64,000 nt of DNA, taken from NCBI GenBank assembly GCA_029250605.1, contig JAQXEZ010000002.1, positions 22,775 through 86,774 of the forward strand, written 5' to 3'. The notes beneath the pieces are model-generated. The model had not been told where the DNA came from, searched no databases, and was given only the letters and a program-made list of their open reading frames with translations. The stretch comes from Candidatus Thalassarchaeaceae archaeon (GTDB taxonomy: Archaea > Thermoplasmatota > Poseidoniia > Poseidoniales > Thalassarchaeaceae). Below are positions 10,282 to 54,236 of the stretch, in pieces. Position 1 is the stretch's first letter, and each line of letters begins with the position of its first letter. The translations under genes were made by a program, and so were the position numbers.

Positions 10282-11042
10282 ATAGGACAAGAGTCCATTG
10301 GCTTGAGGGAGACAGCCTCCCTATGCACGCCATGGTGCTAGAAGCAGTTCCTGGAGTGGGCAACGTGGGAAAAATTATGGTTGACGGACTAATCGATAAG
10401 CACCCCTCAAGAACCATCGGATGGATTCTGCACCCGGACTTCCCTCCTCATGCGACGCTATCTGATGAGGGTTTGATTGGACCACCTAGATTGGATATTA
10501 TTGTGGTTATTCTCCCTAATGGCGAGAACGTTTGTATCATCACGGGAATCATGCAGCCCATGACTGCTCCCGGGCAGTTCGAGATCGCAGAGGCGATTCT
10601 TGGATTGGCAAGTGATTCTGAGGCGAGTCGTGTCCTTGTCCTGGCAGGATTGGCTGCGGAACCAGAATGCCGATCGATTTACGCAGTCTGCTCTGACAAA
10701 GTTTTCCGGAAGAACCTCGAGAAGGAGGACATTGTCGTAAGTAGGGACCAGCCAAAGGGCGGAATGATCGGAGTTGCCGGGATGGTACTATCGTTGTCCA
10801 CAACACTCGGGGTACCGGCCCTCGGAGTCATAGCTGAGACGGTCGGGGCCAGTTCCGATGTCCTCGCAGCGGACAGGATGGCCAATTGGATAGAGCAGGC
10901 CTTCGAGGTCCCACTGGATCTCGATCTTGACACGACTAAGGAGACTGCTGCCAAGCTGATGGAGAAGATTGGGGGCGATGGTTCTATTGAGGACTACCTT
11001 GCAATGGAGGAAACTGAGGCTTCATCTGACTTCTACGTCTGA
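10278..11042 (+). CDS. PAC2-family (proteasome assembly chaperone / COG1938-like) protein
   Basis: The Gly-rich N-terminus (EAVPGVGNVGKI) and size match the PAC2/COG1938 proteins that occupy this position in the archaeal L44e-S27e-aIF2alpha-Nop10 superoperon. Overlaps nop10 by 4 nt. Confidence 0.5.
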   Translation: MNRTRVHWLEGDSLPMHAMVLEAVPGVGNVGKIMVDGLIDKHPSRTIGWILHPDFPPHATLSDEGLIGPPRLDIIVVILPNGENVCIITGIMQPMTAPGQFEIAEAILGLASDSEASRVLVLAGLAAEPECRSIYAVCSDKVFRKNLEKEDIVVSRDQPKGGMIGVAGMVLSLSTTLGVPALGVIAETVGASSDVLAADRMANWIEQAFEVPLDLDLDTTKETAAKLMEKIGGDGSIEDYLAMEETEASSDFYV

Positions 11043-11047
11043 TCTAC

Positions 11048-12310
11048 TTACCTTCTTCGCCTTCTCTTGCTGTTCCCTCGCCCTCCGGATGAGGATTCCT
11101 CGACGGAAATTCGCCTGCCCTTGAATTCCGACTTGTTCATCGCCTTGATAGCGTCCTTGGCTTCCTTCTTGTCAGCGAATGTGATGAATGCGAATCCCCT
11201 CGGCTTCTTGGTTTCCTTATCCATTGCCATATGGACGTCGTTCAGTTTTCCATGTACGGAGAAGGCCTCCCTTAGATCGTCTTCCGTGGCATCGTAAGAC
11301 ACGCCGCCGATGAACAGTTTTACTCCAAACTCCTTCTGTGCCTTGCCTCTGGCTTTCTTCATGACCTCCCTTTCCTTAGCGAGATCGTCCTTGCTAGCCT
11401 TTCCAGACTCCACTCTGTCCATGCAGTCGCGGCATCTGAGGGGTTTTCCAGGAGTTGGTTTGAATGGGACCTTCGTCTGTGTTCCACAAAGGGTGCACTT
11501 TGCAGGGTGCATCTCCCTCTGTGGCCGCCCACCACCCCTGCCTCCTCTGGAAGATGGTGATCTCTTGGCTGATTCTGGAATCTCGTGAGACCATCCCCTC
11601 CTATGATCGGCTACTGGGGACAAGTATGGCCTTGCTCCGTCATGGCCCAACATGGACTCTGCTTCGCTGGACCAGCGCTCACCGGGGCGGTTTAACTTCT
11701 GGATATCTGAACCAGAGGGGATTTCGAAACCGTGTCCGAAGCCATTCGAGAGGGCCCTGAAGCCCCTGTAGTCGCAGCGAGGGCACTCGACGTTGAAGTC
11801 GGGGGTGATTTCACTTGGAAGCAAATCCTCCCCACAAGGCGGGCAAGCTGCGTAAAGAACACCCAATTTGGAATCCCCCTTTGTCGTGGCCTTCAGCATC
11901 GGCTCGACATTGATGATCTTGGCGCGAACGATGTCGCGCTTCCTCATCGTATCGCCCGCCGATGGGATGAAACGGTCCACTATTTCGGAGACGAAGACGT
12001 CTGCGAATAGCTTCAGAGCCGGGACGGCTCTGTGCCCGCCCTCGTTGGTCTCAATGTGTAAAACGCGGAGTTCTGCGGTCTTCTCGTTGAGGCGGTTCAC
12101 CTCTCCAATAATGACATCACCAATCTTTGGAGAATTTATCGGAGGTGCTGATGAATCTACAGAAATAACTCCAGAGTTGCTCACGATGTTACCAGAGAGT
12201 ACAGCCACGGGACCCCTATCAGTCATATGGAGGCCATGGCCCAATTCTTCTCCTGGACCAACCTCAACAGAAAATCCAGGGGTTACTTGGTCACCGACCG
12301 ATGCTGTCAT
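11048..12310 (-). CDS. csl4: exosome complex RNA-binding protein Csl4 fused to RGG box, zinc ribbon and C-terminal RRM domain
   Basis: The N-terminal ~185 aa has an S1 domain and the Csl4 Zn ribbon (CPPCG...CPRC). It is followed by an RGG linker (SSRGGRGGGRPQ) and a second Zn ribbon (CTLCG...CRDC). The C-terminus is an RRM with RNP2 (KLFIGGV) and RNP1 (RGFAFITF). The adjacent NPPW methyltransferase matches the known Csl4 neighbourhood. Confidence 0.7.
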   Translation of the reverse strand: MTASVGDQVTPGFSVEVGPGEELGHGLHMTDRGPVAVLSGNIVSNSGVISVDSSAPPINSPKIGDVIIGEVNRLNEKTAELRVLHIETNEGGHRAVPALKLFADVFVSEIVDRFIPSAGDTMRKRDIVRAKIINVEPMLKATTKGDSKLGVLYAACPPCGEDLLPSEITPDFNVECPRCDYRGFRALSNGFGHGFEIPSGSDIQKLNRPGERWSSEAESMLGHDGARPYLSPVADHRRGWSHEIPESAKRSPSSRGGRGGGRPQREMHPAKCTLCGTQTKVPFKPTPGKPLRCRDCMDRVESGKASKDDLAKEREVMKKARGKAQKEFGVKLFIGGVSYDATEDDLREAFSVHGKLNDVHMAMDKETKKPRGFAFITFADKKEAKDAIKAMNKSEFKGRRISVEESSSGGRGNSKRRRRR

Positions 12311-12363: not shown

Positions 12364-13011
12364 CTATTGTGGAGTTAATCGCCAGAAAGCTGCTCTAGTC
12401 TTACCTCTCTGTCTGCTGTGGTGAGAGTATGCCGCGGGAAGGGAGAAATCAGCCTCTCCATACCTCTCTACGAACCATCCGTGCTCCTCGAACAGTGGCT
12501 CTATGTGGCTCGCCTCGGCACTGTGCATCAAATGCGAGGATGCTCTAGTAGATAGGATGGCATCTAGAAAGGGGCGATCGGCCTTTGGAGACTGCCTACC
12601 CCAAGGTGGGTTGCTGATTACGACGTCAGGCGAATCTAGTTCGATAGAGTCTGTACCGATAGTAGCTTGGATTACTTCGACGGAGTCGGAAAATCCCATC
12701 TTTTCAGCATTGGACTGTGCTGTATAGCAGGCATTTTGGTCGGTATCAATCAGAACTGTTCTTCCAGCACCCAGAGCCATGGCGCCCAATCCTAGTACCC
12801 CATTTCCTGCCCCTAGGTCGACAACTGTACACCCCTCATGTAAATCGCCAAAGGTGGAAATATCAGTGAGCCAACGAGCGGCCAAGTCGCCATCAGTGGA
12901 GTATTGCTCGAGTTCGACTGATTGGGATTGGGTTTGCTCGAGTCCAGAAAGTAACATCGCCAGTCTTCTGACTCGCATGCTTACCGAAAGTCCACCTCGC
13001 CTAAGAACCAA
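12364..13011 (-). CDS. METTL5-like RNA N6-adenine methyltransferase (COG2263 predicted RNA methylase)
   Basis: SAM-binding motif VVDLGAGNGVLG, catalytic VISNPPWG (NPPW) motif, and the conserved neighbour of Csl4 in archaeal exosome superoperons. Confidence 0.7.
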   Translation of the reverse strand: MVLRRGGLSVSMRVRRLAMLLSGLEQTQSQSVELEQYSTDGDLAARWLTDISTFGDLHEGCTVVDLGAGNGVLGLGAMALGAGRTVLIDTDQNACYTAQSNAEKMGFSDSVEVIQATIGTDSIELDSPDVVISNPPWGRQSPKADRPFLDAILSTRASSHLMHSAEASHIEPLFEEHGWFVERYGEADFSLPAAYSHHSRQRGKTRAAFWRLTPQ

Positions 13012-20368: not shown

Positions 20369-23300
20369 ATGGTCAGAGGTCCAGGAAAGTTCTTCCCATT
20401 CGCCATCGCGATTTTGGTTTTCTTGCTTGATGTGCCCATAGGAGCAGCGCATGTCCCTGATGTAGAGAATTCTGATTCTACAGTTTTTTTTGAGGGTGAA
20501 ACTCCAGCCATTCCATCATTGATTTGCGGGGAAGAAGAATGCCAGAAAGAACTCAATCCGACCCATACTCCTCTCAATTCTAGTCCTCCAGCAATGGAAT
20601 TCGGATGGTGGAATAGTTTCTGGTCCGACTCCGACTCCAATGGTTTTGATGACCGACTCCAACTTATCGTGGCAGGAGAAAGGGAGTCTGTCTCAGTAAC
20701 TTCAATCGTTGGTGATGATGGCAGAGGAACTGTTGCTATCATTGTCCACTATGCATGGCATCCAGGAGTTCTGGACATCGACTCGTTAAAGGGAGTGATC
20801 GAGCAACACGGCTGGGAAAACGAAGGCTCCTGGTTCATGGTAATGGATCATCTAGATGCCATAGTCCTGGATCACGTCCCAGTGAGTTCTCTGATTGATA
20901 TTTGGAGTCTAGATGGAGTCGTCCTTGTCGAGGAGCAGAGCGTTATTGTGCCTTATCTGGACAAGGCGACGAGGGGTTCCAAGGTGAGGACCTCGGGGGT
21001 TTATGACGAGACTTTGAGGGGGCTTGGATACCATGGTTCTGGTAAAGTAATCGCTATTCTTGATACTGGAGTCGACAATGAGCACTTCTCACTTGACGAT
21101 TTCTCGGACGATAACAAGGACAACACAAAGGACCCCGATGACATAGAGGACCCCAAATGGGTCGGGGGATGCGATGCAACAGGAGTGGGGCAGTCAGGAT
21201 GCAACGATGAGGACCCCGATGATGGTGACGGTCATGGAACCCACGTGGCGGGAATTGCCCTCGGTACGGGAGACTCTAGTCGAGTCAATCAAGGATACTC
21301 TCCCGGCTCTTATCTAGTCGACGTGAAAGTCATGGAGGACTATGGTGGGGGGAACTCCCAGTCTATTCTGGCCGGCATCCAGTGGGCCATTAACAACAAA
21401 GACACTGATTGGGGCAATAATGCATCAAGCAGGGGCATCCACGTACTTTCTATGTCCTTCGGCAGAGCCAGCTCTGCTGTTGGAGACAACAACGAAGATG
21501 GGTCATCGGCGGAGGCGAATCTAGTTAATCAGGCCTCAGAGAATGGTTTAGTCTGTGTAGCTGCAATTGGAAACGATGGAGCGAACAATGTGAACTCCGT
21601 CGGTGCGGCGGATACCTCAATCACAGTTGGGTGGCTGGATGACAAGAATACCATCGATCGTAGTGATGACTCAATTAGCTCAAACTCCAACTATGGCCCG
21701 AGGACCGATGATGGAGACGGAGACTCGTGGGATGAAATGAAACCCTGGGTTGTGGCCCCTGGGTCGAATATCAACTCCGCACAGCATGCCGAATCATCCG
21801 GAATCATTCCTGGATCAGAAGTAAACAGAGCGAGTGACGACTACACTCAGTTATCGGGATCTAGCATGTCGACTCCAGCGGTGGCTGGGCTCGTGGCGAT
21901 TATGCTAGAAATTGGCGAAATGCGCAAGATGCCATTCATGGAGGAGGATGAGCCTGGAATAGAGAGGTATGAGGCGATCAGAAGTTTCCTCGCAGGTGGC
22001 TCAGAGTTCAGGAATGAATGGTCTGTGGATGAGACCTGGCAAGATAACAACTGGAACACGAGATATGGTTTCGGGATTATTGACGGGGGTGAAATCGCTA
22101 GTGAGATGTTCGATTACACAGGTGGCGGTGGCGGTGGAGGGAATCAGACCTCAGGCCCGGGATCAAACCAAGAGGGTCATTGGGTTGAGATTGAAAGTCC
22201 TTCAGCATACGCTTGGTTGGTAGAAGGAAGAGGATACAACCTAAGGGGGCACATCAACGAGCATGGCGAGGACAATGGGACTATCGAGGAAGTTGTCGTA
22301 AAGGTCGAGATGGAATTCAGGGAATCATCTGACACGCCCAAACAGAGATCAATTCTGGTAAACTGGTCGAATCCTACTGGAATAACCAATTGGACGGAAC
22401 CCTTCGAAGTTCCCGACCTCCCAGATGAATACACCGATGTCTCAGTCACTGGAATGGTTGCGGCGCGGAATGACATAGGAAGATGGAGCAATACGACTGA
22501 GTACTTCTTTCCAGTAGGCAGGGTAAACATCACACTAGAAGGCCCCAGTGGACAAGGTGACTTGGATGGAAACGTAGAGGTTAATGGCCAGTTTCAGTCA
22601 ATTGGAAATGCTACAATTCAATGGAGGCTGGACAGCGAAGAATGGCAGAATGGGCCCCATTACCACGACGGAGAGTGGACCATTGAGGACCAAGAGGGGA
22701 TGAGGCATGCAACTTCTCGGTACAAGGGCGATGGCAGCATCGATCCAGACTACCAGGGTCATGCATATTGTGTACACATGTTCAAAGCGGCTCAGAATTC
22801 TGGGAATAGCGTCGATTGCAAAGAGGATGACGATGGATGGACTCAATGGAGTTTCAACTGGGATACAACCCAGCACAAGGACGAAGAGTACAGGATTTCA
22901 GTGAGGGTGATTAGTGCTGTTGGAGTGACTTCTGAGCAAATCCGAAGAGTTGTCAGAGTTGACAACATTGACCCTATGCCAGACTTGGTTTTCGTTAGTA
23001 AATCGATTTCGGTTCAGGAATTTGGCATTCCGATGCAGGAATCATATGTTAATACATTCTTGGAAGTCAGGGCTACTATTAGGAATTCGGGGGATCAAGC
23101 CGCGACTGATGTGGGAATCATTCTAGAAGAATGGGGGGAGAGGCGAGACGAGTATGTGATTTCAAACATAGATACCGGCCAGTTCGTTGAAGTTGTACTG
23201 TACTGGAACCCTATGGACTCAGGCGATGCTCTGCTATCCATTTCAATCGACCCTCTGAATTCAATTCAGGAGTTAGACGACAATAACAACGAGCTTGTAG

Positions 23301-25339
23301 GAACTTTCTCTGTTGTCCCGAGGCCTCCAGGGGTCGATCTTGCAATTAGGGCAGGGTCAATTTCAGCTCTGGCAGTCTCTAGCCCGATTCCCAGGCCAGA
23401 CGAGTCGGCAGTCGTCCAAGCAAGGGTAGACAATCTGGGGTCGCAGGATGCTGTCGGAGTCTCTGGGACTCTGGAAATGATGACTGAGCGGGGTTGGGAA
23501 TTTATTGGGAATTCAACTGCTGCATTGGTTCTGGGCGGATCTCATTCGATAATCTCTTTTCCCTTCGCTCCAAACATTTCCGGGCCACTTGAAGTGAGAG
23601 TGAGCGTCATCTTGGATAGCGGAGGAGACAATGACTGGTCCAACAATGTGCGGATCAAGACCCTGCTTGTTGACAGTACGACTTTGTCGGGACCGAGGGA
23701 TGCTGAACTGAATCCCGGAGAGAGTCCCATTGCCATCGTAAGTCTAGATAGCGAAGAGGGTGATGATCTACTAATTGGGGAGAAGGATGGGGCCCTGTTA
23801 ATGTACAAACTAACTGAAACTAAATCGTTAATTGAATGCAATAACGTGATTGAGGAACGATGGTCTGGCGATATTTCAATTATCGGTACGGATGAAGGTT
23901 TTGCCCATATTGTGTGGACAAGGCGTTACATGGGGCCAAACTGGTTTCTAATGCAGACCCTAAGTTACTCCACTATCGACTCAAGTTGTAGAATTGCCCC
24001 CCCTCAGGACTTACTCCCGGGGATTCCACTGTCCGATGGAAAGTATTGGGGCATTGACATGGACATAAGGGACTCTGAAATTCTTGTTTCTGGCTATCAC
24101 AGGGATGTTTTCAGTGGGGGAAGTCTCGAAGACGAGACGAACATCTTCCTAATTCATTCAGAAAGCCCCCTCTCCTCGGACGACTGGAATCTGCAGACTG
24201 GAATAATCAAAGACATCGACGCCGACCCTTACCAGATTGATCCAATATCAGTCGAATTCGGGCATGATCAGGCGCATATCCTCTATCAAACGATTAGGAA
24301 CGACACTACTGGCAAGGACCGCCTTGGAGTCTGGTACTCACATGGAATGATTGGCCAGGAGACGTGGGCATATCGAAAGGCAGTCGGTGACGAGTCGGCC
24401 ATCCCCATGCTGACTGTGATTGAAGATGATGATGGCGATACTTTGGTTTCGCTTTGGAGAGAAGGGGATCCTCAAGACTCCGAACTGGTCGTATTCGTGA
24501 CTGATTCAAATTTCATGACTAATGGCCAAATGGAAACGCGGATCCCGGCAAGAGGAATGGCGGGAATAGGCGTTGTAGAGTCAGAGAGGGGGATTCAGGT
24601 ACTATTCGATCGGGTTGGGGCTAGTGGCCCTCAAGTAGAGTACGGGTTGATTGATGTTGATAGTGGTTGGATAGGCCTCTCAGACACTTTGGTCAGAGGG
24701 CAATACAAATCGATGGATAGGTCCGAAGATTCTGGAGAAACGATGATGGTCGTCTCATCATCCGACGGTTGGCAAATAAGGACCCTGATAGATGATGGCT
24801 CTTCTAGACGCGGCGGGGGCCTATCTGACCAACTAAGATCATCCCTCGGCTTGGATCAAGAGAGTTTCGAAATCCTAGTGATTGGTGTCGCATTGGCCGT
24901 TCTGATACTTGGAATGGTAACCTTAGTCGGTCTTTCCTCACAGGGAGTCAGGTGGGTCGGAAGGAGAGGTTCGATTGACAAGGATGCTAGCGTGGTGATG
25001 GAGGATGACGTAGTGGACCTAGTGGGAGGAACCGATCTCTCGATTGGCTCAGACGAGATCGAAATTGTCCAAGATGATTCTAATGATGATTTTGCCGTAA
25101 GTGGACGCGATAGCAGGAGAGCGAGAAGGGATAAGAGGAATTCCGAAGAAGATGGCTTGCTAGACACAGCGGATTCTGGAACTATTGAGCCCGTATTGGA
25201 AATCCAGATGCCAGATTACTCCATGGCACCACCTATTTCTGGCCAGGTAACATGTCCTGGGTGCAAGAGCAGGTTCGCAACGGAACCGGGAATCATGTCA
25301 ATGAAATGCCCAGTTTGTGGATTGAAAATTGATCTCTGA
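20369..25339 (+). CDS. giant subtilisin-like serine protease (peptidase S8), secreted and membrane-anchored, with cytoplasmic zinc-ribbon tail
   Basis: Signal peptide, then the S8 triad in order: D (AILDTGVD), H (HGTHVAGIA), S (GSSMSTPAVAGLVA). This is followed by about 1000 aa of beta-rich adhesion-like repeats, a TM helix (ILVIGVALAVLILGMVTLVGL), an acidic tail and a terminal CPGC...CPVCG. Confidence 0.8.
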   Translation: MVRGPGKFFPFAIAILVFLLDVPIGAAHVPDVENSDSTVFFEGETPAIPSLICGEEECQKELNPTHTPLNSSPPAMEFGWWNSFWSDSDSNGFDDRLQLIVAGERESVSVTSIVGDDGRGTVAIIVHYAWHPGVLDIDSLKGVIEQHGWENEGSWFMVMDHLDAIVLDHVPVSSLIDIWSLDGVVLVEEQSVIVPYLDKATRGSKVRTSGVYDETLRGLGYHGSGKVIAILDTGVDNEHFSLDDFSDDNKDNTKDPDDIEDPKWVGGCDATGVGQSGCNDEDPDDGDGHGTHVAGIALGTGDSSRVNQGYSPGSYLVDVKVMEDYGGGNSQSILAGIQWAINNKDTDWGNNASSRGIHVLSMSFGRASSAVGDNNEDGSSAEANLVNQASENGLVCVAAIGNDGANNVNSVGAADTSITVGWLDDKNTIDRSDDSISSNSNYGPRTDDGDGDSWDEMKPWVVAPGSNINSAQHAESSGIIPGSEVNRASDDYTQLSGSSMSTPAVAGLVAIMLEIGEMRKMPFMEEDEPGIERYEAIRSFLAGGSEFRNEWSVDETWQDNNWNTRYGFGIIDGGEIASEMFDYTGGGGGGGNQTSGPGSNQEGHWVEIESPSAYAWLVEGRGYNLRGHINEHGEDNGTIEEVVVKVEMEFRESSDTPKQRSILVNWSNPTGITNWTEPFEVPDLPDEYTDVSVTGMVAARNDIGRWSNTTEYFFPVGRVNITLEGPSGQGDLDGNVEVNGQFQSIGNATIQWRLDSEEWQNGPHYHDGEWTIEDQEGMRHATSRYKGDGSIDPDYQGHAYCVHMFKAAQNSGNSVDCKEDDDGWTQWSFNWDTTQHKDEEYRISVRVISAVGVTSEQIRRVVRVDNIDPMPDLVFVSKSISVQEFGIPMQESYVNTFLEVRATIRNSGDQAATDVGIILEEWGERRDEYVISNIDTGQFVEVVLYWNPMDSGDALLSISIDPLNSIQELDDNNNELVGTFSVVPRPPGVDLAIRAGSISALAVSSPIPRPDESAVVQARVDNLGSQDAVGVSGTLEMMTERGWEFIGNSTAALVLGGSHSIISFPFAPNISGPLEVRVSVILDSGGDNDWSNNVRIKTLLVDSTTLSGPRDAELNPGESPIAIVSLDSEEGDDLLIGEKDGALLMYKLTETKSLIECNNVIEERWSGDISIIGTDEGFAHIVWTRRYMGPNWFLMQTLSYSTIDSSCRIAPPQDLLPGIPLSDGKYWGIDMDIRDSEILVSGYHRDVFSGGSLEDETNIFLIHSESPLSSDDWNLQTGIIKDIDADPYQIDPISVEFGHDQAHILYQTIRNDTTGKDRLGVWYSHGMIGQETWAYRKAVGDESAIPMLTVIEDDDGDTLVSLWREGDPQDSELVVFVTDSNFMTNGQMETRIPARGMAGIGVVESERGIQVLFDRVGASGPQVEYGLIDVDSGWIGLSDTLVRGQYKSMDRSEDSGETMMVVSSSDGWQIRTLIDDGSSRRGGGLSDQLRSSLGLDQESFEILVIGVALAVLILGMVTLVGLSSQGVRWVGRRGSIDKDASVVMEDDVVDLVGGTDLSIGSDEIEIVQDDSNDDFAVSGRDSRRARRDKRNSEEDGLLDTADSGTIEPVLEIQMPDYSMAPPISGQVTCPGCKSRFATEPGIMSMKCPVCGLKIDL

Positions 25340-32963: not shown

Positions 32964-33914
32964 CTAACGATGGGAGTCCTTGAAGTTGGGCGTTTCCAGA
33001 TCTTTCTCCTTGGGGGTTATTCGGAATAAGAAAAATGCCGAAGCAATAGTTACTACAGATATCGCCATCAATGTGAACAAATGTGAGCTCCCATCAGCAC
33101 CCAATTTCTCTTCTGGGACTGTGAAATTGACCAAGTACATCTGCGTCCAGTTCTTCCCAGTAATCCAGAAACTACCAGAATTCCGATCAAATGCTATGCC
33201 GTTCAATACCTCTTCATTGCTATTTCCCTGAATGGAAGTGACGGCCAATGGGGATGAGAAAAAGTCCACCTTACCCGAAGCAGACGAGATTCTAAGGATT
33301 GTCTCCTCCATCCAAATGTTTGCATATATTTTGTCATCTACACATTCCAATTCATTTAGGTTTGAAACAGGAACGCCATCCCAAGTTACCTGTGTGGTGA
33401 AATCTATTTCAAAGCTATCTGGATCCCTGAATGAAAGCTCAGATGTCCCATTGGATGTAACAATGTGCTCCCCATTGTAGCATATCCCCCAACCCTCGCC
33501 TTCGAAACTGAAGTTTCCAATTATACTAAAATTTGAGATGTGAAATTCCAATGCCACTCCTGCCCTCCAAGTCAGCATAATGATTGACTGGCCCTTTACG
33601 GTAATCCCTTCTCCGAAGTAAGAGTCGTCAATCTTAGTCTGTCTGATAATCTCCCCATTTTGTGAGTCAATCTCGCTAATTCTCGAATGGCCATAAAGGC
33701 CCGAACTCTCGAAAATTGAGTTTTCCAGTACTTCCAGCCCTTGTGTGAACGAAGATGAGTCGTGAGGCAGTGTTCGCAATATCTCAACATCCCTCTCTTC
33801 GGCCGTATGATTGCCCTCCTCGGCCATTGACATCTGTGAAAGGAGTATGAGGAGCATTGCGATGGGAACGATTGATGGCCCCGTCCCCCTGCCCATGTAC
33901 GAACGATGCTCCAT
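32964..33914 (-). CDS. glutaminyl-peptide cyclotransferase (plant/bacterial beta-propeller type), extracytoplasmic, membrane anchored
   Basis: Signal peptide; QC family motifs HDSSSFTQGL, ESSGLYGHS, FGEGIT, LTW; C-terminal TM helix. Confidence 0.6.
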   Translation of the reverse strand: MEHRSYMGRGTGPSIVPIAMLLILLSQMSMAEEGNHTAEERDVEILRTLPHDSSSFTQGLEVLENSIFESSGLYGHSRISEIDSQNGEIIRQTKIDDSYFGEGITVKGQSIIMLTWRAGVALEFHISNFSIIGNFSFEGEGWGICYNGEHIVTSNGTSELSFRDPDSFEIDFTTQVTWDGVPVSNLNELECVDDKIYANIWMEETILRISSASGKVDFFSSPLAVTSIQGNSNEEVLNGIAFDRNSGSFWITGKNWTQMYLVNFTVPEEKLGADGSSHLFTLMAISVVTIASAFFLFRITPKEKDLETPNFKDSHR

Positions 33915-33969
33915 CGATGTTAAAATACGTCCTCGAGCAGTTTGGAGCAGATTGGTAAACGAGGTGCTA

Positions 33970-36900
33970 ATGATGGGTGGTGGTTCGGAAATCTACTCTA
34001 CTAGGAAAGCTGTGCTGACAGTAGTTTCGATACTAGTTGTTTTCATTGCTCCTATTTTTTCCTCTGAAGGGCTAGCAAGCACTGGAGGGCAGCCAAGAAA
34101 CTGCCTGAATACGTGGTCGGTGGACGATACGGACAACATGACGACCAATGACGGGACCTTTGCAGTAACTGTGGAGAAAATCTCCACCAACGCAGCGATT
34201 TTCGTTGAAGACGGTCAAATCGTTTCATCTACTGTTCTGAATGACATTGTGTCAAACTGGGAATCCATAATTTTCCCTTCCACTACCAACTACTTCGGGA
34301 CCCCTCCGGATATTGATGACAATTGTCAGATAGAAATTGCCATTCTGTCAATAGATGGGCCTGGTGGGGAAGAGGGTTATTTTGAATCTGGAGTTTCATC
34401 GTTGCGAGAGGCATTATTCCTAGATATCGATGATCTGTCAGAAAGAAATCGGGTGATGGCGCACGAGTTTGGGCAATTGATTCATCACGAGAATGACCCT
34501 TTCGAATATTTCTGGATTGATGAGGGCGCAGCGGGGCTTTCTGAGTTTATTAGCTACGGAGAGTCAGTGAATCTAGAAGAGGGGGCAAACTCATGGACGC
34601 TGAACTCGAGTACAAGTTTGAGATGGTGGGACGGAAGAAATTCTGATATCGGTTCAAGTTTCTTATTCTTGGCATATTTGGCAGACAAATTAGGCGGGCC
34701 TGCTGCCATCAGAGAGTTGGTGTCTAATCCTTCCCTAGGTGGGAATGGGGTTGAGAGCCTATCCAGGAACCCTGGTCCGGGATCGACTCCAATAGGGACT
34801 TCAATGAGTGAGATCTTTGCAAACTTCAGCGCAGCAGTTACTCTGGATAGCGCGCAGGGTGCGTTTGGTTTCTCCGACCTTGACTTAGTCGATGATTGCT
34901 CAAACGGTGGCTTCTGCAAGGGATCCATCAGTGCAGAGAACGATCAGTGGTCAGAGGCGTGGCAATCGTCAGGACACTCAGTGGAGGGATGGGGGCTCAA
35001 ATCATTCAGATTCACACAAGGTGATGGTTACCCCTTGAGCATCATGGTTCAACCGGACAGATTCGGTTTCGAAGGAGTCGTTCTTTCGAAAGAGGAGGCT
35101 TCTGGGACTTGGACTATGGACAAACTGAGGATTGATTCGAGCGACGGCAGGGGAACGGGACTAGTTCACGGATTTGGAAATACCACCTCCGAGGTTCTAC
35201 TCCTAGTCTGGTACAACTCCCTTGTTGATGACTGTGATTTCGACTTTGCAAATTGTGGCGTACTTTCTGGAGGAAATTACCCCGTCGGGTCATTTACCGT
35301 AAGTGCCAGTCAGGTCACGAGCCCTGCTGAGGTGTCGATAGGGTCGATAGAAGGTTTTGATCGAGACGGGGACTTCCTCGATGATAGCGTGGAAATTGGC
35401 ATCAGCGTCAGTTCTAGTGCATTTTCAGAGTCTCTGTCTGTAGAATTCTCGGCCTTCACCAATAATTCACTACATGATTCTGCGGATTTCATGGTCTCAG
35501 TAGGAAACTCTGAACCGGAAATGATCTCAGTTTGGTTTACCCCCCCATTTACCAGTGATTGGACTTTTACAACTAAGGTCAGAGACATTACTGGGGAACT
35601 GCAGGACATAGCTCAGTCACTCCCTCAGCAGATTTTCAACATGAAACCAGTTGGGTCGGGGGCAATCTCATCAAATGAAACGCAGACATGGACTCAGACG
35701 TACATCTTTGGGGGCGGTTACGACTCTTGGGGATTCGGGTTCCAAAACGGTTCTTTCGGGCACAATGAAACTCCGCAATCGTACATCTGGGATCTGGGTG
35801 ATGGGAATTCTTCGAGTTTGAAGAATCCTGTTCATTCGTTCACGAAGGAAGGGGCATACGTGATCACTCTCCTAGTCAGGGATCATGGGGGTTTCTTTTC
35901 TGAAACAATTTCATGGGAAATCTCGGTAAATGATACCTCTGAGCCGATTCCTGAGATTTCTGTAGATGGTTTGGCTATCCAAGAGGAGTTGACGGTTCAG
36001 ACGAATCAGAGAATACAATTTTCGGCCTTCGGGACGTCTGACAATGTTCCCGTGGACAAATTATTTTTCTCATGGAACTGGGGTGATGGATCTGGTGACT
36101 CTGGTACAGGAATCTTCGAAATTGGCCATTCGTGGACAGATGGCAGTAGCAATGGCACCGTATACTCATTGGAGTTGTTAGTCAGTGATGGTCACCAATC
36201 TGCACAGAAGTCCATTCTAGTCACGGTTCTAAACCGGGCGCCTTACCAGATTTTCTCGGAGGATCTGGAGGGTTTTGCGGTTACTCCACTGGAGATGCCG
36301 GATGTTTTCGAGGACGAAGATGGGATAATTGTCGAATTCAGATGGACTTTCGAAGGAGGCGTCAACTTAGGGGGGGTGGGTGTCTCACTTGCATCTGATT
36401 TCACCGAAACAAATTCATTCGAAGCTAATCCTATCGTCAGTTGGAAGGAACCAGGGGTGAAAAACGTAACACTAGAGGTGGCTGATGATGATGGAAATAC
36501 CTCCATCACTTACTTGGAAGTAGAAATCCTGAATCAACGACCAGTTGCACTTTTCGAGCGCCCTTCTGACGGAGAAATCGGTGATGCTTACATTTTCAGT
36601 AGCTCATCATTCGACCCTGACGGGGATTCGTCTGCATTATCCCACTACTGGAATTTCTCAGACCGGGACTCACCCATTGAGAATACCACTTCCGTGAGTA
36701 GGACTTTTTCAAACCCGGGACTTCACAGTGTTTCACTAGTAGTCGTCGACGAGAGAGGCTTAGAGTCTGCTCCGAAGACTTTCCTACTGTATATCGGAAA
36801 CCCATTACCTGTCCCAATAATGTCATTCATCTGCCCTAGTGATGAAGATGGATTATTGTTTGAACTTCCTGATGATGTGGAAGAGGGGGTTACTTGGAAG

Positions 36901-37923
36901 GTTCCAAGGACAGCGGAAGGAGGGGCCTTTGTTGCCCCTGGGAATCTCATCAGATTCGATGGCAGCGAGAGTTTCGACGCTGACCCGGAATTCGAAGGAA
37001 TGACATCCACGGACGCCAACAGCCCGGATTGGAATGGGATTGTGGATTGGATATGGGACTTCGGAGACGCTAGTCCCCCTTCCTCAGGACCTCAAGTTTG
37101 GCATAGCTATGAGAGATCGGGGGAATATACAGTCAGACTTACTGTAGTTGACGGTTTTGGAGGCGGGGACTCCAACACCACAGAGATGAAAGTGATAGTC
37201 TCTTCAGCCCCTCGAATCGAGACTTCAAAACCCATCAGCACCGAGTACGTTGTCGTTGGAGAATTGGTCAATCTGTCCGGGGACGCCTCCGACTCCGACT
37301 TGGAGGCTGGAATAATTGCATGGATGGACAATGATGCGTTTTTTGATAGCGATGGTGATGGCGACCCTAGCAACGATAGAGACCTGAATCTCTCTGAGAC
37401 TCTAGAGTTTGACTGGGACATCAATGTATTTGTGGATGAAGACTGCATGACTCTATCGGGGTGTGATGGCGATTCGAGGAACGACTGGATAATACCAAAT
37501 CAAACCTGGGCCATTCCCGGTGAAGTACGAATTTCAATGATGGTCTGCGATGGCTTGAGTGTCTGTGAATCTAAAGACTTCGTGATTACAGTGCTCTCCG
37601 TCCAGGATACTGCACCGCCGAAGACTCTGTCCGACTTGACCATGGAAGATCTTGTTCCAGGTAGAGAAAGCGCAGGCTTACTTGCTCTTGTTGCACTAGT
37701 TGCAGTACTAGGATGGATGGTACTCAGAGAAAGGGATGATGATGAGATGGATGCCTTGGACAATGTCAAGAAATACGATGTCGATGAGGTCGAGGCGGAA
37801 GGAGGCCTACCTGGGATGGATCAACACAGTCCCCCTCCACAACCAAAATACCTTACTGCCGACGAGCGCACCAACAAAGAGTCAGGGTACGTGCGACCGA
37901 TTAGAACGAGGCGAAAGAAGTGA
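33970..37923 (+). CDS. giant secreted surface protein with multiple PKD-like Ig domains and C-terminal TM anchor
   Basis: Signal peptide after Met at 33970. At least four PKD-type repeats (WDLGDGNSS...HSFTKEGAYVITLLVRDHGG; WNWGDGSGDSG; WDFGDASPPS...HSYERSGEYTVRLTVVDGFGG). C-terminal TM (LLALVALVAVLGWMVL) and a charged tail. Confidence 0.7.
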   Translation: MMGGGSEIYSTRKAVLTVVSILVVFIAPIFSSEGLASTGGQPRNCLNTWSVDDTDNMTTNDGTFAVTVEKISTNAAIFVEDGQIVSSTVLNDIVSNWESIIFPSTTNYFGTPPDIDDNCQIEIAILSIDGPGGEEGYFESGVSSLREALFLDIDDLSERNRVMAHEFGQLIHHENDPFEYFWIDEGAAGLSEFISYGESVNLEEGANSWTLNSSTSLRWWDGRNSDIGSSFLFLAYLADKLGGPAAIRELVSNPSLGGNGVESLSRNPGPGSTPIGTSMSEIFANFSAAVTLDSAQGAFGFSDLDLVDDCSNGGFCKGSISAENDQWSEAWQSSGHSVEGWGLKSFRFTQGDGYPLSIMVQPDRFGFEGVVLSKEEASGTWTMDKLRIDSSDGRGTGLVHGFGNTTSEVLLLVWYNSLVDDCDFDFANCGVLSGGNYPVGSFTVSASQVTSPAEVSIGSIEGFDRDGDFLDDSVEIGISVSSSAFSESLSVEFSAFTNNSLHDSADFMVSVGNSEPEMISVWFTPPFTSDWTFTTKVRDITGELQDIAQSLPQQIFNMKPVGSGAISSNETQTWTQTYIFGGGYDSWGFGFQNGSFGHNETPQSYIWDLGDGNSSSLKNPVHSFTKEGAYVITLLVRDHGGFFSETISWEISVNDTSEPIPEISVDGLAIQEELTVQTNQRIQFSAFGTSDNVPVDKLFFSWNWGDGSGDSGTGIFEIGHSWTDGSSNGTVYSLELLVSDGHQSAQKSILVTVLNRAPYQIFSEDLEGFAVTPLEMPDVFEDEDGIIVEFRWTFEGGVNLGGVGVSLASDFTETNSFEANPIVSWKEPGVKNVTLEVADDDGNTSITYLEVEILNQRPVALFERPSDGEIGDAYIFSSSSFDPDGDSSALSHYWNFSDRDSPIENTTSVSRTFSNPGLHSVSLVVVDERGLESAPKTFLLYIGNPLPVPIMSFICPSDEDGLLFELPDDVEEGVTWKVPRTAEGGAFVAPGNLIRFDGSESFDADPEFEGMTSTDANSPDWNGIVDWIWDFGDASPPSSGPQVWHSYERSGEYTVRLTVVDGFGGGDSNTTEMKVIVSSAPRIETSKPISTEYVVVGELVNLSGDASDSDLEAGIIAWMDNDAFFDSDGDGDPSNDRDLNLSETLEFDWDINVFVDEDCMTLSGCDGDSRNDWIIPNQTWAIPGEVRISMMVCDGLSVCESKDFVITVLSVQDTAPPKTLSDLTMEDLVPGRESAGLLALVALVAVLGWMVLRERDDDEMDALDNVKKYDVDEVEAEGGLPGMDQHSPPPQPKYLTADERTNKESGYVRPIRTRRKK

Positions 37924-48890: not shown

Positions 48891-50000
48891 ATGGATCTGA
48901 ATAGACATGAGTTCGAACTCGATGACCTGATAGAGAGAATAAAGGATAATGACAATCGCCTTGTTGCACTTCAGGTTCCAGAAGGTCTCAAGATGCAGGC
49001 ACTGGAAATGATGGATGCAATCGAGGAAGATACTTCTGCGAGAATTATTCTGGCAGCCGATCCCTGTTATGGCGCTTGCGACCTTGTTCATGACAAAATG
49101 CAGCGAATGGGCGTGGAGCTTGTTGCCCATATGGGACATTCACAAATGAATATCGATTCCGGAATGCCTACTGAATTCATCAACGTTACTTACGATGGGG
49201 ATCCTGCAATTGATCCTGTCCTGCCAATTCTCTCGGCGCATCGAGAAATCGCGCAGAAACGCCTCTCCGAGTCTTTGAATGAGGGTGAGATGAGTGAGGA
49301 AGAGGCCAAAGAGAGATTCATGGATGCCGTGGGAAGGGTATCGCCTCTGAGAGGAGCAAAGTTGGGCCTGGTTGGGAGTATACAGCATCTCCACCTAATC
49401 TTCGACTACAAGGAGCGGTTGGAATCTGCAGGATTCGAAGTCGAGGTTCCAGTAGGCGGGGCCCGGCTATCATTCCCTGGTCAGGTTCTGGGATGCAATT
49501 ATTCGGGAGATAGCGATGATATCGGTCACTATCTTTTCCTCGGAAGCGGTGATTTCCACCCTATTGGTTTGGTTCTTCACACAGGAAAACCATTGGCAAT
49601 GCTGGACCCGTACACTGGCGGGGCAGAGGAAATGTCATTCCAAAGGATTGAGGGGATTCTGAGGCAGAGATTCGGGCTGATTATGGCTTGTGACCAAGCA
49701 AAGACTTTTGGAATTTTAATAGGTGAAAAACCCGGCCAGATGAGGAGGAATCTAGCACTTAGGATGAAGAGGAAACTGGAAAAGCATGGTAAGAAGGGTT
49801 ACCTGCTAGCATTGGAACATGTTGGGCCCGAATTAATCGACTTCTACCCGGTGGACGCATTTGTCAATACTGCATGTCCCAGGATAGCAATTGACGATTC
49901 GGTTCGGTATGCAAAACCACTACTAACGCCATTCGAACTTGAGGTTGTCCTGGGTGACAAGAAATGGGAAACAGGATACAAGTTCGATGAGATCCCATAA
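48891..50000 (+). CDS. dph2: diphthamide biosynthesis enzyme Dph2 (2-(3-amino-3-carboxypropyl)histidine synthase)
   Basis: Three-domain radical-SAM-like Dph2 with conserved Cys in each domain (ADPCYGACD...). Confidence 0.8.
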   Translation: MDLNRHEFELDDLIERIKDNDNRLVALQVPEGLKMQALEMMDAIEEDTSARIILAADPCYGACDLVHDKMQRMGVELVAHMGHSQMNIDSGMPTEFINVTYDGDPAIDPVLPILSAHREIAQKRLSESLNEGEMSEEEAKERFMDAVGRVSPLRGAKLGLVGSIQHLHLIFDYKERLESAGFEVEVPVGGARLSFPGQVLGCNYSGDSDDIGHYLFLGSGDFHPIGLVLHTGKPLAMLDPYTGGAEEMSFQRIEGILRQRFGLIMACDQAKTFGILIGEKPGQMRRNLALRMKRKLEKHGKKGYLLALEHVGPELIDFYPVDAFVNTACPRIAIDDSVRYAKPLLTPFELEVVLGDKKWETGYKFDEIP

Positions 50001-50066
50001 ATCTGTACGTAGCCTCTCGGCATTTATTCCAGTAAATTATGAATCAAGGTAACGCTGTCTGGAAGA

Positions 50067-50363
50067 TTACTCTTCTTCGTCATCGTCATCGTCGCCCAAT
50101 AGGGCTTCCCAGTCGAGGTCTTCTTCTGCGGACATGAAGTAAAGTGCCCCCATCGCTGCTGCTGCTAGCATGCCGGCCATGTCTTGTGTGCTGAAACCGG
50201 TATCTGGCCTCATTGCATCCATACTGCCGATTCCGATCAAATCGATTAGGAACAGCTTGTCGCCGCCCCCCAACAATCCTGCCATGTTCACAACAACGAA
50301 GATTAGAATCGCAGCTGCTCCAATTAGAAGTCCCATTCTTTGTGTGTCGTTTAGTTCTACCAT
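50067..50363 (-). CDS. small two-TM membrane protein with poly-acidic C-terminal tail (DDDDDEEE)
   Basis: Two hydrophobic helices and an acidic tail. No recognisable motif. Confidence 0.35.
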   Translation of the reverse strand: MVELNDTQRMGLLIGAAAILIFVVVNMAGLLGGGDKLFLIDLIGIGSMDAMRPDTGFSTQDMAGMLAAAAMGALYFMSAEEDLDWEALLGDDDDDEEE

Positions 50364-50454
50364 AGCAATACCTGTGCATCCCCAAGGGTGACGAGTTATT
50401 AATGTGAATGGTGGGCTGTTGACAAGTTATCTGGCTAAAACGGCTGTTGGGTGG

Positions 50455-51162: not shown

Positions 51163-51228
51163 ATTTAATTGTGGTCCAGACCTTATCAGACAACAAACAG
51201 GGAAATAGCCCCATTTACACTAAAATCA

Positions 51229-51888: not shown

Positions 51889-51944
51889 TCACTCACCGTA
51901 ATTTTCGCAACCCATATGTTGGCTTTAACCCGCCGATATCTCCC

Positions 51945-52856: not shown

Positions 52857-52958
52857 GGCACGGCCTCAAGTAGCGCTGGTACGCTCAGGCCTATCAAAAC
52901 ACCGAATCAAATAGAGGTATGTGGCAATCATAGGGTTGCTGATGGGTCTGAACCAAAT

Positions 52959-54170: not shown

Positions 54171-54236
54171 TCGGTAAGTCAACTCCGAACCGCTCTTATA
54201 GGGGCCTAATGTCGGGATGCCGTCCAAGGTGACCAG

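What the first reader, a model, noticed from the sequence alone, without database searches (positions are those of the whole stretch)
11048..12310. Exosome cap subunit Csl4 fused in-frame to RGG box, zinc ribbon and a canonical RRM domain
The 420-aa ORF opens with a complete Csl4 of about 185 aa, comprising an S1 domain and the CPPCG...CPRC zinc ribbon. Csl4 is supported further by its known neighbour, an NPPW RNA methyltransferase. The ORF then continues without a stop into a Gly/Arg-rich RGG linker (SSRGGRGGGRPQ). A second CxxC...CxxC ribbon follows. The C-terminus is an RNA-recognition motif with textbook RNP2 (KLFIGGV) and RNP1 (RGFAFITF) and a basic tail (RRRRR). RRM domains are rare in archaea. 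The RGG, zinc-finger and RRM arrangement resembles eukaryotic hnRNP/FUS-like proteins. Attached to an exosome cap subunit, it would give the archaeal exosome an extra substrate-recruitment module.
Basis: partly seen in the sequence, partly recalled or inferred. Interest (0 to 1): 0.75.

Follow-up and report, generated by a model that had tools for sequence, protein, structure and literature searches.

The report
Exosome cap protein carrying extra RNA-binders
In Marine Group II archaea, among the most abundant archaea of the surface ocean, the exosome cap subunit Csl4 is permanently fused to a zinc finger and an RRM RNA-binding domain; this conserved design probably lets the RNA-degrading machine catch its substrates directly.

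Summary
ORF 11048..12310 (-) encodes 420 aa with these modules: a complete Csl4 (residues 1-194), a conserved 55-aa extension with no known relatives, a short RGG stretch, a CxxC-x17-CxxC zinc finger, a long helix, a canonical RRM and a basic tail.

It is not an assembly artefact. The identical protein lies on 5 independently assembled contigs. About 78 species-level genomes of Thalassarchaeaceae (MGIIb) carry it as one intact ORF, and I found no split version.

The sister family Poseidoniaceae (MGIIa) and other marine Thermoplasmatota carry Csl4 plus the same extension but different RNA binders: two RRMs, one RRM, or two zinc fingers with long RGG. The C-terminal modules are therefore swappable on a fixed Csl4 scaffold.

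A published MGII genome table lists Rrp4, Rrp41, Rrp42, DnaG and one csl4, which is this fusion and is transcribed.

The most likely function is an exosome cap subunit with flexibly tethered RNA-capture modules. An engineered Csl4-RBD fusion (Hou et al. 2014) worked in exactly this way.

Automated annotations already show both domains, but I found no paper describing the fusion. I rate it a new variant of a known kind, of moderate-to-high interest.

The parts
11048..12310 (-). Whole gene: Csl4 + extension + RGG + zinc finger + RRM fusion, 420 aa plus stop
   Evidence: ORF list. Identical protein on 5 independent contigs. Intact in about 78 species-level genomes.
12131..12310 (-). Csl4 N-terminal domain (residues 1-60), the ring anchor in canonical Csl4
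   Evidence: Within the NCBIfam PRK09521 match. Beta-strands at pLDDT about 86. Foldseek best hit is A. fulgidus Csl4, 2BA1. The ring-anchor role is taken from Hou 2014. Mean pairwise identity 0.51 across 70 species.
11861..12130 (-). S1 (OB-fold) domain of Csl4 (residues 61-150)
   Evidence: PRK09521 match and a weak EXOSC1 hit. Aligns to 2BA1. Fold match at TM 0.73. Pairwise identity 0.74.
11729..11860 (-). Csl4 C-terminal zinc ribbon (residues 151-194; C156, C159, C176, C179). Canonical Csl4 ends here.
   Evidence: A. fulgidus Csl4 (179 aa) aligns end-to-end with residues 17-194. The four Cys are invariant.
11561..11728 (-). Extension A (residues 195-250): a conserved lineage-specific segment (LNRPGxRWSxEAE...LGHDGARPYLSPVADHRRG)
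   Evidence: Pairwise identity 0.71 and 34% invariant positions across 70 species. Core residues N207, G210, R212, W213, E218, D235 and R237 are also kept in the two-RRM relatives. pLDDT falls from about 78 to below 50 from residue 221. No Pfam or PDB relative.
11519..11560 (-). Gly/Arg-rich RGG stretch (residues 251-264, SSRGGRGGGRPQ)
   Evidence: Read directly from the sequence. Least conserved region, pairwise identity 0.34. RGG count is 0-7 among species and zero in loci L066-L072. Predicted disordered.
11414..11518 (-). CxxC-x17-CxxC zinc finger (residues 265-299; C272, C275, C293, C296)
   Evidence: TIGR04272 47.5 bits (cut-off 36) and PF23477 46.1 bits (cut-off 27). Most conserved module, identity 0.79. 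The model shows a hairpin at 268-281 and a helix from 294. Zinc binding was shown for family members in M. mazei (PMC12704099).
11327..11413 (-). Helical connector (residues 300-328, KASKDDLAKEREVMKKARGKAQKE)
   Evidence: Helices at 294-302 and 307-328 with pLDDT about 77-80. The zinc finger plus this helix recur together in P0127, which has two such units.
11096..11326 (-). RRM domain (residues 329-405) with RNP2 KLFIGGV and RNP1 RGFAFITF
   Evidence: Pfam RRM_1 E 4.9e-21. Beta-alpha-beta-beta-alpha-beta topology at pLDDT 87-91. Foldseek matches solved RRMs at TM 0.9-0.95, rmsd 0.7-1.9 A; CIRBP/hnRNP A18 is 42% identical.
11051..11095 (-). Gly/Arg-rich basic tail (residues 406-420, ...SSSGGRGNSKRRRRR)
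   Evidence: Read directly from the sequence. The composition is conserved but the sequence is not, identity 0.45. Disordered in the model.
12364..13011 (-). Upstream co-directional METTL5-family (NPPW) rRNA m6A methyltransferase homologue, 53 nt from the csl4 start. Gene callers use a later start, giving 204 aa.
   Evidence: PDB sequence hits PH1948, human METTL5 and Ta1320. Pfam MTS. The same adjacency is found in 79 of 85 loci, including Poseidoniaceae-type loci. Intergenic sequence.

Best explanation
This gene encodes the Csl4 cap subunit of the RNA exosome of a Thalassarchaeaceae (Marine Group II b) archaeon.

The N-terminal 194 residues are a complete Csl4 (N-terminal ring-anchor domain, S1 domain, zinc ribbon). 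I infer that this part sits on the Rrp41-Rrp42 hexamer as in other archaea.

The polypeptide continues from the peripheral zinc ribbon in four stages:
- a conserved 55-residue segment, probably a docking peptide for a partner or for the complex itself;
- a flexible Gly/Arg-rich tether;
- a zinc finger, a helix and an RRM;
- a basic tail.

I infer that these tethered modules capture single-stranded RNA and raise its local concentration at the S1 pore, so the 3' end can be threaded into the phosphorolytic chamber or be tailed by the reverse reaction. A cap can hold up to three Csl4 subunits, so an exosome could carry up to three such arms.

What is shown: the domain identities, the fusion itself, its conservation, and the presence of the core genes in MGII. 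What is inferred: incorporation into the exosome, RNA capture, and RNA specificity.
For: Domain identities:
- Csl4 profile match covers almost the whole model.
- The solved A. fulgidus Csl4 aligns end-to-end with residues 17-194.
- The AF2 model's best PDB match is that structure (E 1.3e-14, TM 0.73), followed by yeast and human Csl4 chains.
- RRM and zinc finger pass the curated cut-offs. The RRM fold matches solved RRMs at 0.7 A.

Selection acts on the whole fusion:
- It is intact in about 78 species-level genomes and on 5 independent contigs, never split.
- The extension, zinc finger and RRM are about as conserved as the S1 domain and zinc ribbon.

Exosome context:
- An MGII MAG annotation table lists SDO1-Rrp4-Rrp41-Rrp42, DnaG and a single arCOG00676/K07573 gene. 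That gene is 1,270 nt, has an RRM_1 hit and is followed by a methyltransferase.
- All of these genes have non-zero transcript values (PMC9723583 supplement).
- Synteny with the METTL5-like methyltransferase holds in 79 of 85 loci.

Mechanistic precedent:
- Hou et al. 2014 fused an RNA-binding domain to the C-terminus of S. solfataricus Csl4.
- That chimera formed the exosome cap, gained poly(A) binding and accelerated decay of A-rich RNA.
- The same paper states that the Csl4 N-terminal domain is the main ring anchor (PMC4227792).

Swappable modules:
- Related lineages keep Csl4 + extension but exchange the RNA-binding modules for two RRMs, one RRM, or two zinc fingers + RGG.
- This is what one would expect of an exchangeable substrate-recognition arm.
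Against: - No biochemical or proteomic data show that this protein is part of an exosome.
- The Csl4 NCBIfam score (80.4 bits) is below the curated cut-off of 90 for this protein, although the two-RRM relatives pass at 92-123 bits.
- The N-terminal ring-anchor domain is the least conserved folded part, identity 0.51.
- pTM is 0.43, so the model says nothing about how the modules sit relative to the S1 pore.
- Evidence for the core genes and for a single csl4 comes from one MAG table that was truncated when stored. A second, unfused Csl4 in MGII is therefore not excluded.
- RNA specificity is unknown.
- DnaG, the usual Csl4-docked RNA binder, is still present, so why a further binder is needed remains unexplained.
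Confidence: 0.65

Rival explanations
1. Artefact: a sequencing or assembly error joined a csl4 gene to a separate gene for an RRM protein.
For: None found. Some short database entries begin at the internal Met of the zinc finger (P0151, P0194, P0231). They look like gene calls on fragmentary contigs.
Against: - The identical 420-aa protein occurs in 5 assemblies from different samples.
- More than 120 full-length clusters were found.
- It is one intact ORF in every complete locus of about 78 species-representative genomes.
- The junction region (195-300) is among the most conserved parts.
Confidence: 0.01
2. The fusion works mainly outside the exosome. The Csl4 scaffold would have been co-opted as a free RNA chaperone or ribosome-biogenesis factor, acting together with the co-transcribed METTL5-like rRNA methyltransferase and the neighbouring Nop10, eIF2-alpha and ribosomal protein genes.
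For: - Tight, conserved adjacency to the METTL5 homologue.
- Translation and ribosome-biogenesis genes in the neighbourhood.
- The ring-anchor domain is the least conserved folded part.
- The Csl4 profile score is below the curated cut-off.
Against: - The gene neighbourhood is made up of exosome/proteasome/translation-type genes. From memory, this resembles the context of canonical archaeal csl4; I did not test that here.
- It appears to be the only Csl4 in an MGII MAG that retains Rrp4/41/42 and DnaG.
- All three Csl4 domains are complete, and the fold matches exosome-bound Csl4.
Confidence: 0.15
3. The C-terminal arm is regulatory or serves localisation rather than substrate recruitment. It might fold back to gate the S1 pore (auto-inhibition), or tether the exosome to ribosomes, the membrane or RNA-rich condensates through the RGG and basic tails and the conserved extension.
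For: - A conserved but predicted-disordered peptide at 221-250 looks like a partner-binding motif.
- RGG and basic low-complexity segments are present.
- The S. solfataricus exosome is partly located at the cell periphery (PMC3672285).
Against: - RNP1 and RNP2 are canonical, and the zinc finger keeps its basic and aromatic residues. This points to nucleic-acid binding.
- The RGG stretch is dispensable in some lineages.
- The engineered Csl4-RBD fusion stimulated rather than inhibited decay.
Confidence: 0.15
4. The arm replaces DnaG as the Csl4-associated RNA binder.
For: In other archaea DnaG docks on Csl4 and supplies RNA binding. A cis-fused binder could make it redundant.
Against: An archaeal-type DnaG (arCOG04281) is annotated and transcribed in the MGII MAG.
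Confidence: 0.04

Closest known systems
Canonical archaeal Csl4 (e.g. A. fulgidus AF0206, PDB 2BA1/3M7N; S. solfataricus Csl4)
   Same: It has the same three domains in the same order (N-terminal, S1, Cys4 zinc ribbon). It aligns end-to-end, gives the best fold match, and sits in a neighbourhood of exosome/proteasome/translation-type genes.
   Different: Canonical Csl4 stops at about 180-195 aa. This protein carries 225 further residues: a conserved extension, RGG, a zinc finger, a helix, an RRM and a basic tail.
Engineered Csl4-NT chimera of Hou et al. 2014 (S. solfataricus Csl4 + DnaG N-terminal RNA-binding domain)
   Same: An RNA-binding domain is attached to the C-terminus of full-length Csl4. 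The chimera assembled into the cap and changed RNA binding and decay.
   Different: The chimera is artificial, with a different RNA-binding domain and no conserved extension or zinc finger. The protein here is natural and is conserved across a family.
Csl4 + two RRMs of Poseidoniaceae (MGIIa, 'Poseidonia sp.') and other marine Thermoplasmatota
   Same: The Csl4 is homologous, extension A is the same, and the METTL5-like gene lies upstream in the same way.
   Different: These proteins have two RRMs and no zinc finger. They also carry a conserved C-terminal peptide (about S-R-E-x-x-A-x-R-E-E-G) that the window protein lacks. Identity to the window protein is 29-38%.
Archaeal DnaG as an exosome accessory subunit
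   Same: It adds RNA-binding capacity at the Csl4 position of the cap.
   Different: DnaG is a separate polypeptide that docks non-covalently through its C-terminal domain, and its folds are unrelated. It is still encoded in MGII.
Eukaryotic exosome adaptors NEXT (RBM7 RRM + ZCCHC8 zinc knuckle + MTR4) and TRAMP (Air1/2 zinc knuckles). This comparison rests on background knowledge and was not tested here.
   Same: RRM and/or small zinc-finger modules deliver RNA to the exosome.
   Different: These adaptors act in trans, through a helicase, and use different zinc-finger families. There is no evidence of common descent with the archaeal arm.
FUS/hnRNP-type proteins
   Same: Both combine RGG, a Cys4 finger and an RRM. 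The RRM is 35-42% identical to hnRNP and CIRBP RRMs.
   Different: The finger here belongs to the prokaryotic CxxC-x17-CxxC family (TIGR04272/PF23477), not the RanBP2 type. The module order differs, there is no prion-like domain, and RGG is not conserved within the clade.
CxxC-x17-CxxC small proteins of Methanosarcina (TIGR04272) and multi-repeat versions in Thermoplasmatota (P0234)
   Same: The zinc-finger family is the same. Zinc binding has been shown experimentally for two members.
   Different: Those are stand-alone small proteins or repeat proteins of unknown function. Here there is a single copy embedded in Csl4.
Single-RRM glycine-rich proteins (bacterial/cyanobacterial Rbp, CIRBP, plant GRP)
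   Same: An RRM is followed by a Gly/Arg-rich tail. NF058537 Rbp_regulator matches at E 2.7e-21, and JGI labels some homologues 'cold-inducible RNA-binding protein'.
   Different: Those proteins are free-standing and about 90-150 aa long. The NF058537 score (75.6) is below its cut-off of 100.

Membership tests
Csl4 (exosome cap subunit, arCOG00676 / PRK09521) | Three-domain architecture: N-terminal domain, S1 OB-fold, C-terminal zinc ribbon with four Cys | tested here: met
   The profile match covers positions 21-178 of 180. 2BA1 aligns over residues 17-194. Foldseek gives 2ba1_A at E 1.3e-14, TM 0.73, then eukaryotic Csl4 chains. C156, C159, C176 and C179 are invariant.
Csl4 (exosome cap subunit, arCOG00676 / PRK09521) | Score above the curated NCBIfam equivalog cut-off (90 bits) | tested here: not met
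   The window protein scores 80.4 bits. Homologous two-RRM relatives score 91.9-123.4 bits and pass. The shortfall reflects divergence, not a missing domain.
Csl4 (exosome cap subunit, arCOG00676 / PRK09521) | The genome also encodes the Rrp41/Rrp42 ring (and Rrp4), and this is the organism's Csl4 | tested here: met
   The MGII MAG table lists Rrp4, Rrp41, Rrp42, DnaG and one K07573/arCOG00676 gene, which is the RRM-bearing one. Caveats: this is one MAG, a different genome from the window, and the table was truncated when stored. No core genes lie in the 64-kb window.
Csl4 (exosome cap subunit, arCOG00676 / PRK09521) | Physical incorporation into the exosome cap | not testable with these tools
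   This needs reconstitution, pull-down or a multimer prediction. Only single-chain prediction was available.
RRM (PF00076) | RNP2 and RNP1 consensus motifs, a beta-alpha-beta-beta-alpha-beta fold, and a score above the gathering threshold | tested here: met
   KLFIGGV and RGFAFITF are present. RRM_1 scores 74.8 bits against a cut-off of 20.7. The DSSP topology is as expected at pLDDT 87-91. TM to solved RRMs is 0.9-0.95.
RRM (PF00076) | Binds RNA | not testable with these tools
   Inferred only from the intact RNP motifs.
CxxC-x17-CxxC zinc finger (TIGR04272 / PF23477) | Two CxxC pairs 17 residues apart, and a score above the cut-offs | tested here: met
   C272-x2-C275-x17-C293-x2-C296. Scores are 47.5 bits (cut-off 36) and 46.1 bits (cut-off 27). 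Zinc binding itself was not tested here; it is known for M. mazei members.
RGG box | Clustered RGG repeats, conserved as a functional element | tested here: inconclusive
   The window protein has RGGRGGGR. Across species the RGG/GGR count at this position ranges from 0 to 7, and the region is the least conserved at identity 0.34.
FUS/EWS/TAF15-like proteins | RanBP2-type zinc finger, an N-terminal low-complexity (prion-like) domain, and the order RGG-RRM-RGG-ZnF-RGG | tested here: not met
   The finger belongs to TIGR04272/PF23477, and no RanBP2 hit appeared at E<0.1. The N-terminus is Csl4. The order is RGG-ZnF-RRM.
METTL5 / COG2263-type rRNA m6A methyltransferase (the neighbour gene) | Full-length similarity to METTL5/PH1948 and an NPP[FW] catalytic motif | tested here: met
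   PH1948 E 5.7e-21 (residues 13-205), human METTL5 E 1.8e-18, Ta1320 E 3e-16. NPPW is in the sequence. Substrate was not tested.

The most novel reading that the evidence does not exclude
Marine Thermoplasmatota may have independently built a cis-encoded counterpart of the eukaryotic exosome adaptor complexes. In this reading, a fixed Csl4 scaffold carries a conserved docking peptide (residues about 205-245) that recruits a still unknown partner. On it sit exchangeable RNA-recognition cassettes: zinc finger + RRM in MGIIb, two RRMs in MGIIa, two zinc fingers + RGG elsewhere. These cassettes would define lineage-specific substrate classes. One candidate class is rRNA precursors, processed in concert with the co-transcribed METTL5-like methyltransferase.
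Probability: 0.3. Interest if true: 0.75.

Novelty: new variant of a known kind. Interest (0 to 1): 0.6.

Why it matters
The archaeal exosome is the model for how the eukaryotic exosome evolved. So far, substrate selection in archaea has been ascribed to Rrp4, Csl4 and the docked DnaG protein.

This fusion offers a natural, strongly conserved case in which further RNA-binding domains are wired directly onto the cap. One of them is an RRM, a domain that is rare in archaea. The organisms are uncultured and dominate surface-ocean archaeal plankton.

The family-specific exchange of modules amounts to a ready-made comparative experiment on how exosome specificity evolves. It is also the natural counterpart of an engineered Csl4-RBD chimera that already worked in vitro.

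In practical terms, these proteins are annotated inconsistently in public databases ('hypothetical', 'CxxC-x17-CxxC domain-containing protein', 'nucleolin', 'cold-inducible RNA-binding protein', 'Csl4'). The analysis here allows a uniform annotation.

Tried and rejected
- **Artefact hypothesis.** Rejected.
- **Exosome core genes in the window.** I scanned essentially all ORFs of at least 160 aa with Pfam. No RNase PH, Rrp4 or DnaG genes are present.
- **Literature.** Six full-text searches found no description of a Csl4-RRM fusion. A search for the WGS prefix MDTG01, meant to place one relative taxonomically, led nowhere.
- **Genome scan with a 13-sequence alignment.** It was repeated with 6 sequences.
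- **Top multi-RRM hits of the exhaustive search.** I suspected archaeal multi-RRM proteins. They turned out to be marine protist proteins (dinoflagellates, stramenopiles) that score high through many repeats. They say nothing about the origin of the RRM.
- **Extension A.** A profile search against the PDB and a Pfam scan at E up to 10 gave only chance-level hits.
- **Bacterial-type promoter and terminator scan around the operon.** It found no more than the shuffled expectation, and the method is not appropriate for archaea anyway.
- **The '_1' suffix of 'csl4_1' in the MAG table.** I considered it as evidence for a second csl4 and rejected it, because many single-copy genes carry the same suffix.
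- **Origin of the RRM (bacterial or eukaryotic).** Not resolved. Scores against bacterial Rbp and eukaryotic RRM models are similar.
Full report
**1. Observation**

The ORF 11048..12310 on the minus strand starts with ATG and encodes 420 aa. Profile searches give three independent domain calls:
- Csl4: NCBIfam PRK09521, residues 27-191 against profile positions 21-178 of 180, E 1.4e-22.
- A CxxC-x17-CxxC zinc finger: TIGR04272 and PF23477, residues 265-299, both above the curated cut-offs.
- RRM_1: residues 332-401, E 4.9e-21.

The solved A. fulgidus Csl4 (179 aa) aligns end-to-end with residues 17-194. Its last residues (…STDYGKG) align with …SNGFGHG. A canonical Csl4 would therefore end at about residue 195, and the remaining 225 residues are additional.

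**2. Not an artefact**

- The identical protein is encoded on five contigs from five separate assemblies.
- A search of 5.8 billion proteins found more than 120 clusters at 90% identity that cover the full length at 59-97% identity and carry the same Pfam domains.
- A scan of one genome per GTDB species found 206 genomes with a relative.
- In the best 80 of those, about 78 carry the zinc finger + RRM form as a single intact ORF. The only interruptions are contig ends and one run of N. I saw no genome with split genes.

**3. Organism**

The closest genome is 'Marine Group II euryarchaeote MED-G35' at 98% amino-acid identity. The zinc finger + RRM relatives come from records titled Thalassarchaeaceae, Thalassarchaeum, MGIIb-O3 or MGIIb-N1, or generically Poseidoniales. 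The window is therefore from an MGIIb archaeon.

Its gene content fits this: ribosomal proteins L44e and S27e, eIF2-alpha, Nop10, a PAC2 proteasome chaperone, NMD3, gyrase, Orc1/Cdc6, and large secreted subtilase and PKD proteins.

**4. Anatomy**

An AlphaFold2 model built on a 40-sequence alignment (mean pLDDT 74) gives the following picture:
- Csl4 is confident to about residue 200.
- Confidence declines through 200-220, and residues 221-265 fall below 50.
- The zinc finger forms a hairpin at 268-281 carrying the first CxxC, with the second CxxC at the start of a helix from 294. This is a treble-clef-like shape.
- A long helix spans 307-328.
- A textbook RRM follows at pLDDT 87-91, then a disordered tail.

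Foldseek against the PDB puts archaeal Csl4 (2BA1) first at E 1.3e-14 and TM 0.73. Yeast, fungal and human Csl4 chains follow, then Rrp4. The RRM matches solved RRMs at TM 0.9-0.95.

Mean pairwise identity across 70 species-level genomes, by region:

| Region | Mean pairwise identity |
|---|---|
| N-terminal domain | 0.51 |
| S1 domain | 0.74 |
| Zinc ribbon | 0.71 |
| Extension 195-250 | 0.71 |
| RGG | 0.34 |
| Zinc finger | 0.79 |
| Helix | 0.58 |
| RRM | 0.65 |
| Basic tail | 0.45 |

Two things follow.
- The supposed linker contains a strongly constrained segment (LNRPGxRWSxEAE…LGHDGARPYLSPVADHRRG). It has no relative in Pfam or the PDB and is predicted not to fold on its own. That is the signature of a peptide that binds something.
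- The RGG box is compositional only, and it is missing in some lineages.

**5. A family of variants**

The exhaustive search of 1.84 billion representatives found more distant full-length relatives at 28-38% identity. All keep Csl4 plus the core of the extension (N207, G210, R212, W213, E218, D235, R237). They differ downstream:
- Most have two RRMs and no zinc finger.
- One has a single RRM.
- One (P0127, on a 3.0-Mb contig) has two zinc finger + helix units followed by about 100 residues of RGG repeats and no RRM.
- All of these end in a conserved peptide (about S-R-E-x-x-A-x-R-E-E-G) that the window protein lacks.

The two-RRM clade is itself large, with more than 120 clusters on contigs up to 2.4 Mb. 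Its named members are 'Candidatus Poseidonia sp.' or Poseidoniaceae, i.e. MGIIa. Others are labelled only Thermoplasmatota.

A crude midpoint-rooted NJ tree of the shared Csl4 + extension region places the zinc finger + RRM clade as one group among two-RRM lineages. This suggests, weakly, that two RRMs is the older state and that MGIIb replaced the first RRM with the zinc finger.

**6. Exosome context**

The window holds no RNase PH, Rrp4 or DnaG gene. However, the supplementary gene table of Damashek et al. 2021 for an MGII MAG lists the following:
- the canonical SDO1-Rrp4-Rrp41-Rrp42 cluster;
- an archaeal DnaG;
- a single K07573/arCOG00676 gene of 1,270 nt that also has an RRM_1 hit and is followed by a methyltransferase.

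All of these have non-zero transcript values. The fusion is thus, as far as that truncated table shows, the Csl4 of MGII, and it is expressed. In the window and in 79 of 85 related loci, a METTL5-family methyltransferase gene lies directly upstream on the same strand, 53 nt away.

**7. Mechanism**

The established background comes from PMC3672285 and PMC4227792:
- Csl4 and Rrp4 form a trimeric cap on the Rrp41-Rrp42 hexamer.
- RNA enters through the S1 pore.
- DnaG docks on Csl4 and adds RNA binding.

Hou et al. 2014 attached an RNA-binding domain to the C-terminus of Csl4. The chimera still formed the cap, gained poly(A) binding and sped up decay of A-rich RNA. The natural protein has the same topology.

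I therefore consider it most likely (about 0.65) that it is a cap subunit whose flexibly tethered zinc finger, RRM and basic segments capture RNA and hand it to the pore. Up to three such arms could sit on one complex. The conserved extension would then serve as a docking element. All functional steps in this scheme are inferred.

The rivals are a function outside the exosome, a regulatory or localisation role, and replacement of DnaG. The last is weakened because DnaG is present.

**8. Comparison and novelty**

The protein is a Csl4 by architecture, fold and context, although its NCBIfam score falls just below the curated cut-off. The RRM and the zinc finger are clear members of their families.

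The FUS/hnRNP comparison holds only at the level of 'RGG + finger + RRM'. The finger family, the domain order and the rest of the protein all differ. Functionally, the closest natural analogues are DnaG and, from background knowledge, the eukaryotic RRM and zinc-knuckle exosome adaptors.

[quoted passage not shown] The Pfam RRM hit is visible in a published supplementary table. Six full-text searches nevertheless found no paper that describes or discusses the fusion.

I class it as a new variant of a known kind and give it an interest of about 0.6.

Noticed in passing
L084, L085 (6001-7413); proteins P0130, P0362, P0381, P0439: Poseidoniaceae (MGIIa, 'Poseidonia sp.') carry a different version of the fusion: Csl4 + the same extension + two RRMs, with no zinc finger. 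It ends in a conserved C-terminal peptide (…SRELxAMREEE/G…) of unknown role that the MGIIb protein lacks.
   Followed up: partly
protein P0127 (460 aa, on a 3.0-Mb ENA contig): A third variant has Csl4 + extension + two CxxC-x17-CxxC/helix units + about 100 residues of RGG/GGR repeats and no RRM. It has the same C-terminal REEG peptide. The organism is unknown.
   Followed up: no
window 11561-11728 (residues 195-250): A segment as conserved as the S1 domain is predicted disordered from residue 221 and has no Pfam or PDB relative. It is probably a docking peptide, but the partner is unknown.
   Followed up: partly
L066-L072 (MGIIb-N1-like genomes), position equivalent to window 11519-11560: The RGG box is absent in this lineage and is replaced by an Asn/Ser/Gln-rich basic stretch. 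RGG is therefore not an obligatory part of the fusion.
   Followed up: partly
window 12364-13011 (-): A METTL5-family (PH1948/Ta1320-like, NPPW) methyltransferase lies directly upstream of csl4 on the same strand with a 53-nt gap. The pairing is conserved in 79 of 85 loci across both MGII families. This may be a functional link between rRNA m6A modification and the exosome.
   Followed up: partly
window 11040-11050: The PAC2 proteasome-chaperone gene (+) and csl4 (-) converge with only 5 nt between their stop codons. This leaves no room for separate terminators.
   Followed up: no
window 50000-54200: An Orc1/Cdc6 gene (52959-54170) sits next to three minus-strand ORFs with no Pfam match (50455-52856). 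GC and AT skew change sign in this region. It may be a replication origin.
   Followed up: no
window 20369-25339 and 33811-37923: Two very large ORFs: a 1,656-aa subtilase (Peptidase_S8 + CARDB) and a 1,370-aa protein with PKD repeats. They are probably secreted or surface proteins, which fits the protein-degrading lifestyle proposed for MGII.
   Followed up: no
protein P0227 (209 aa, public metagenome): A database protein joins the zinc finger and half of the RRM to an ABC-transporter permease C-terminus. This is almost certainly a chimeric assembly, not a real architecture.
   Followed up: no
proteins P0288, P0290, P0334 (97-115 aa): Free-standing single-RRM 'RNA-binding proteins' are also annotated in Poseidoniales and Thalassarchaeaceae MAGs, one on a 75-kb contig. 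RRMs in these archaea may therefore not be confined to Csl4. Some of these entries could be fragments.
   Followed up: no
L006, L007 and others; P0001-P0010: Many database homologues are annotated 17-25 aa longer (437-445 aa) because of an upstream in-frame start (…AGPFIGGLPVGGPM…). In the window the ORF cannot extend beyond the ATG at 12310, so these longer N-termini are probably over-calls.
   Followed up: no
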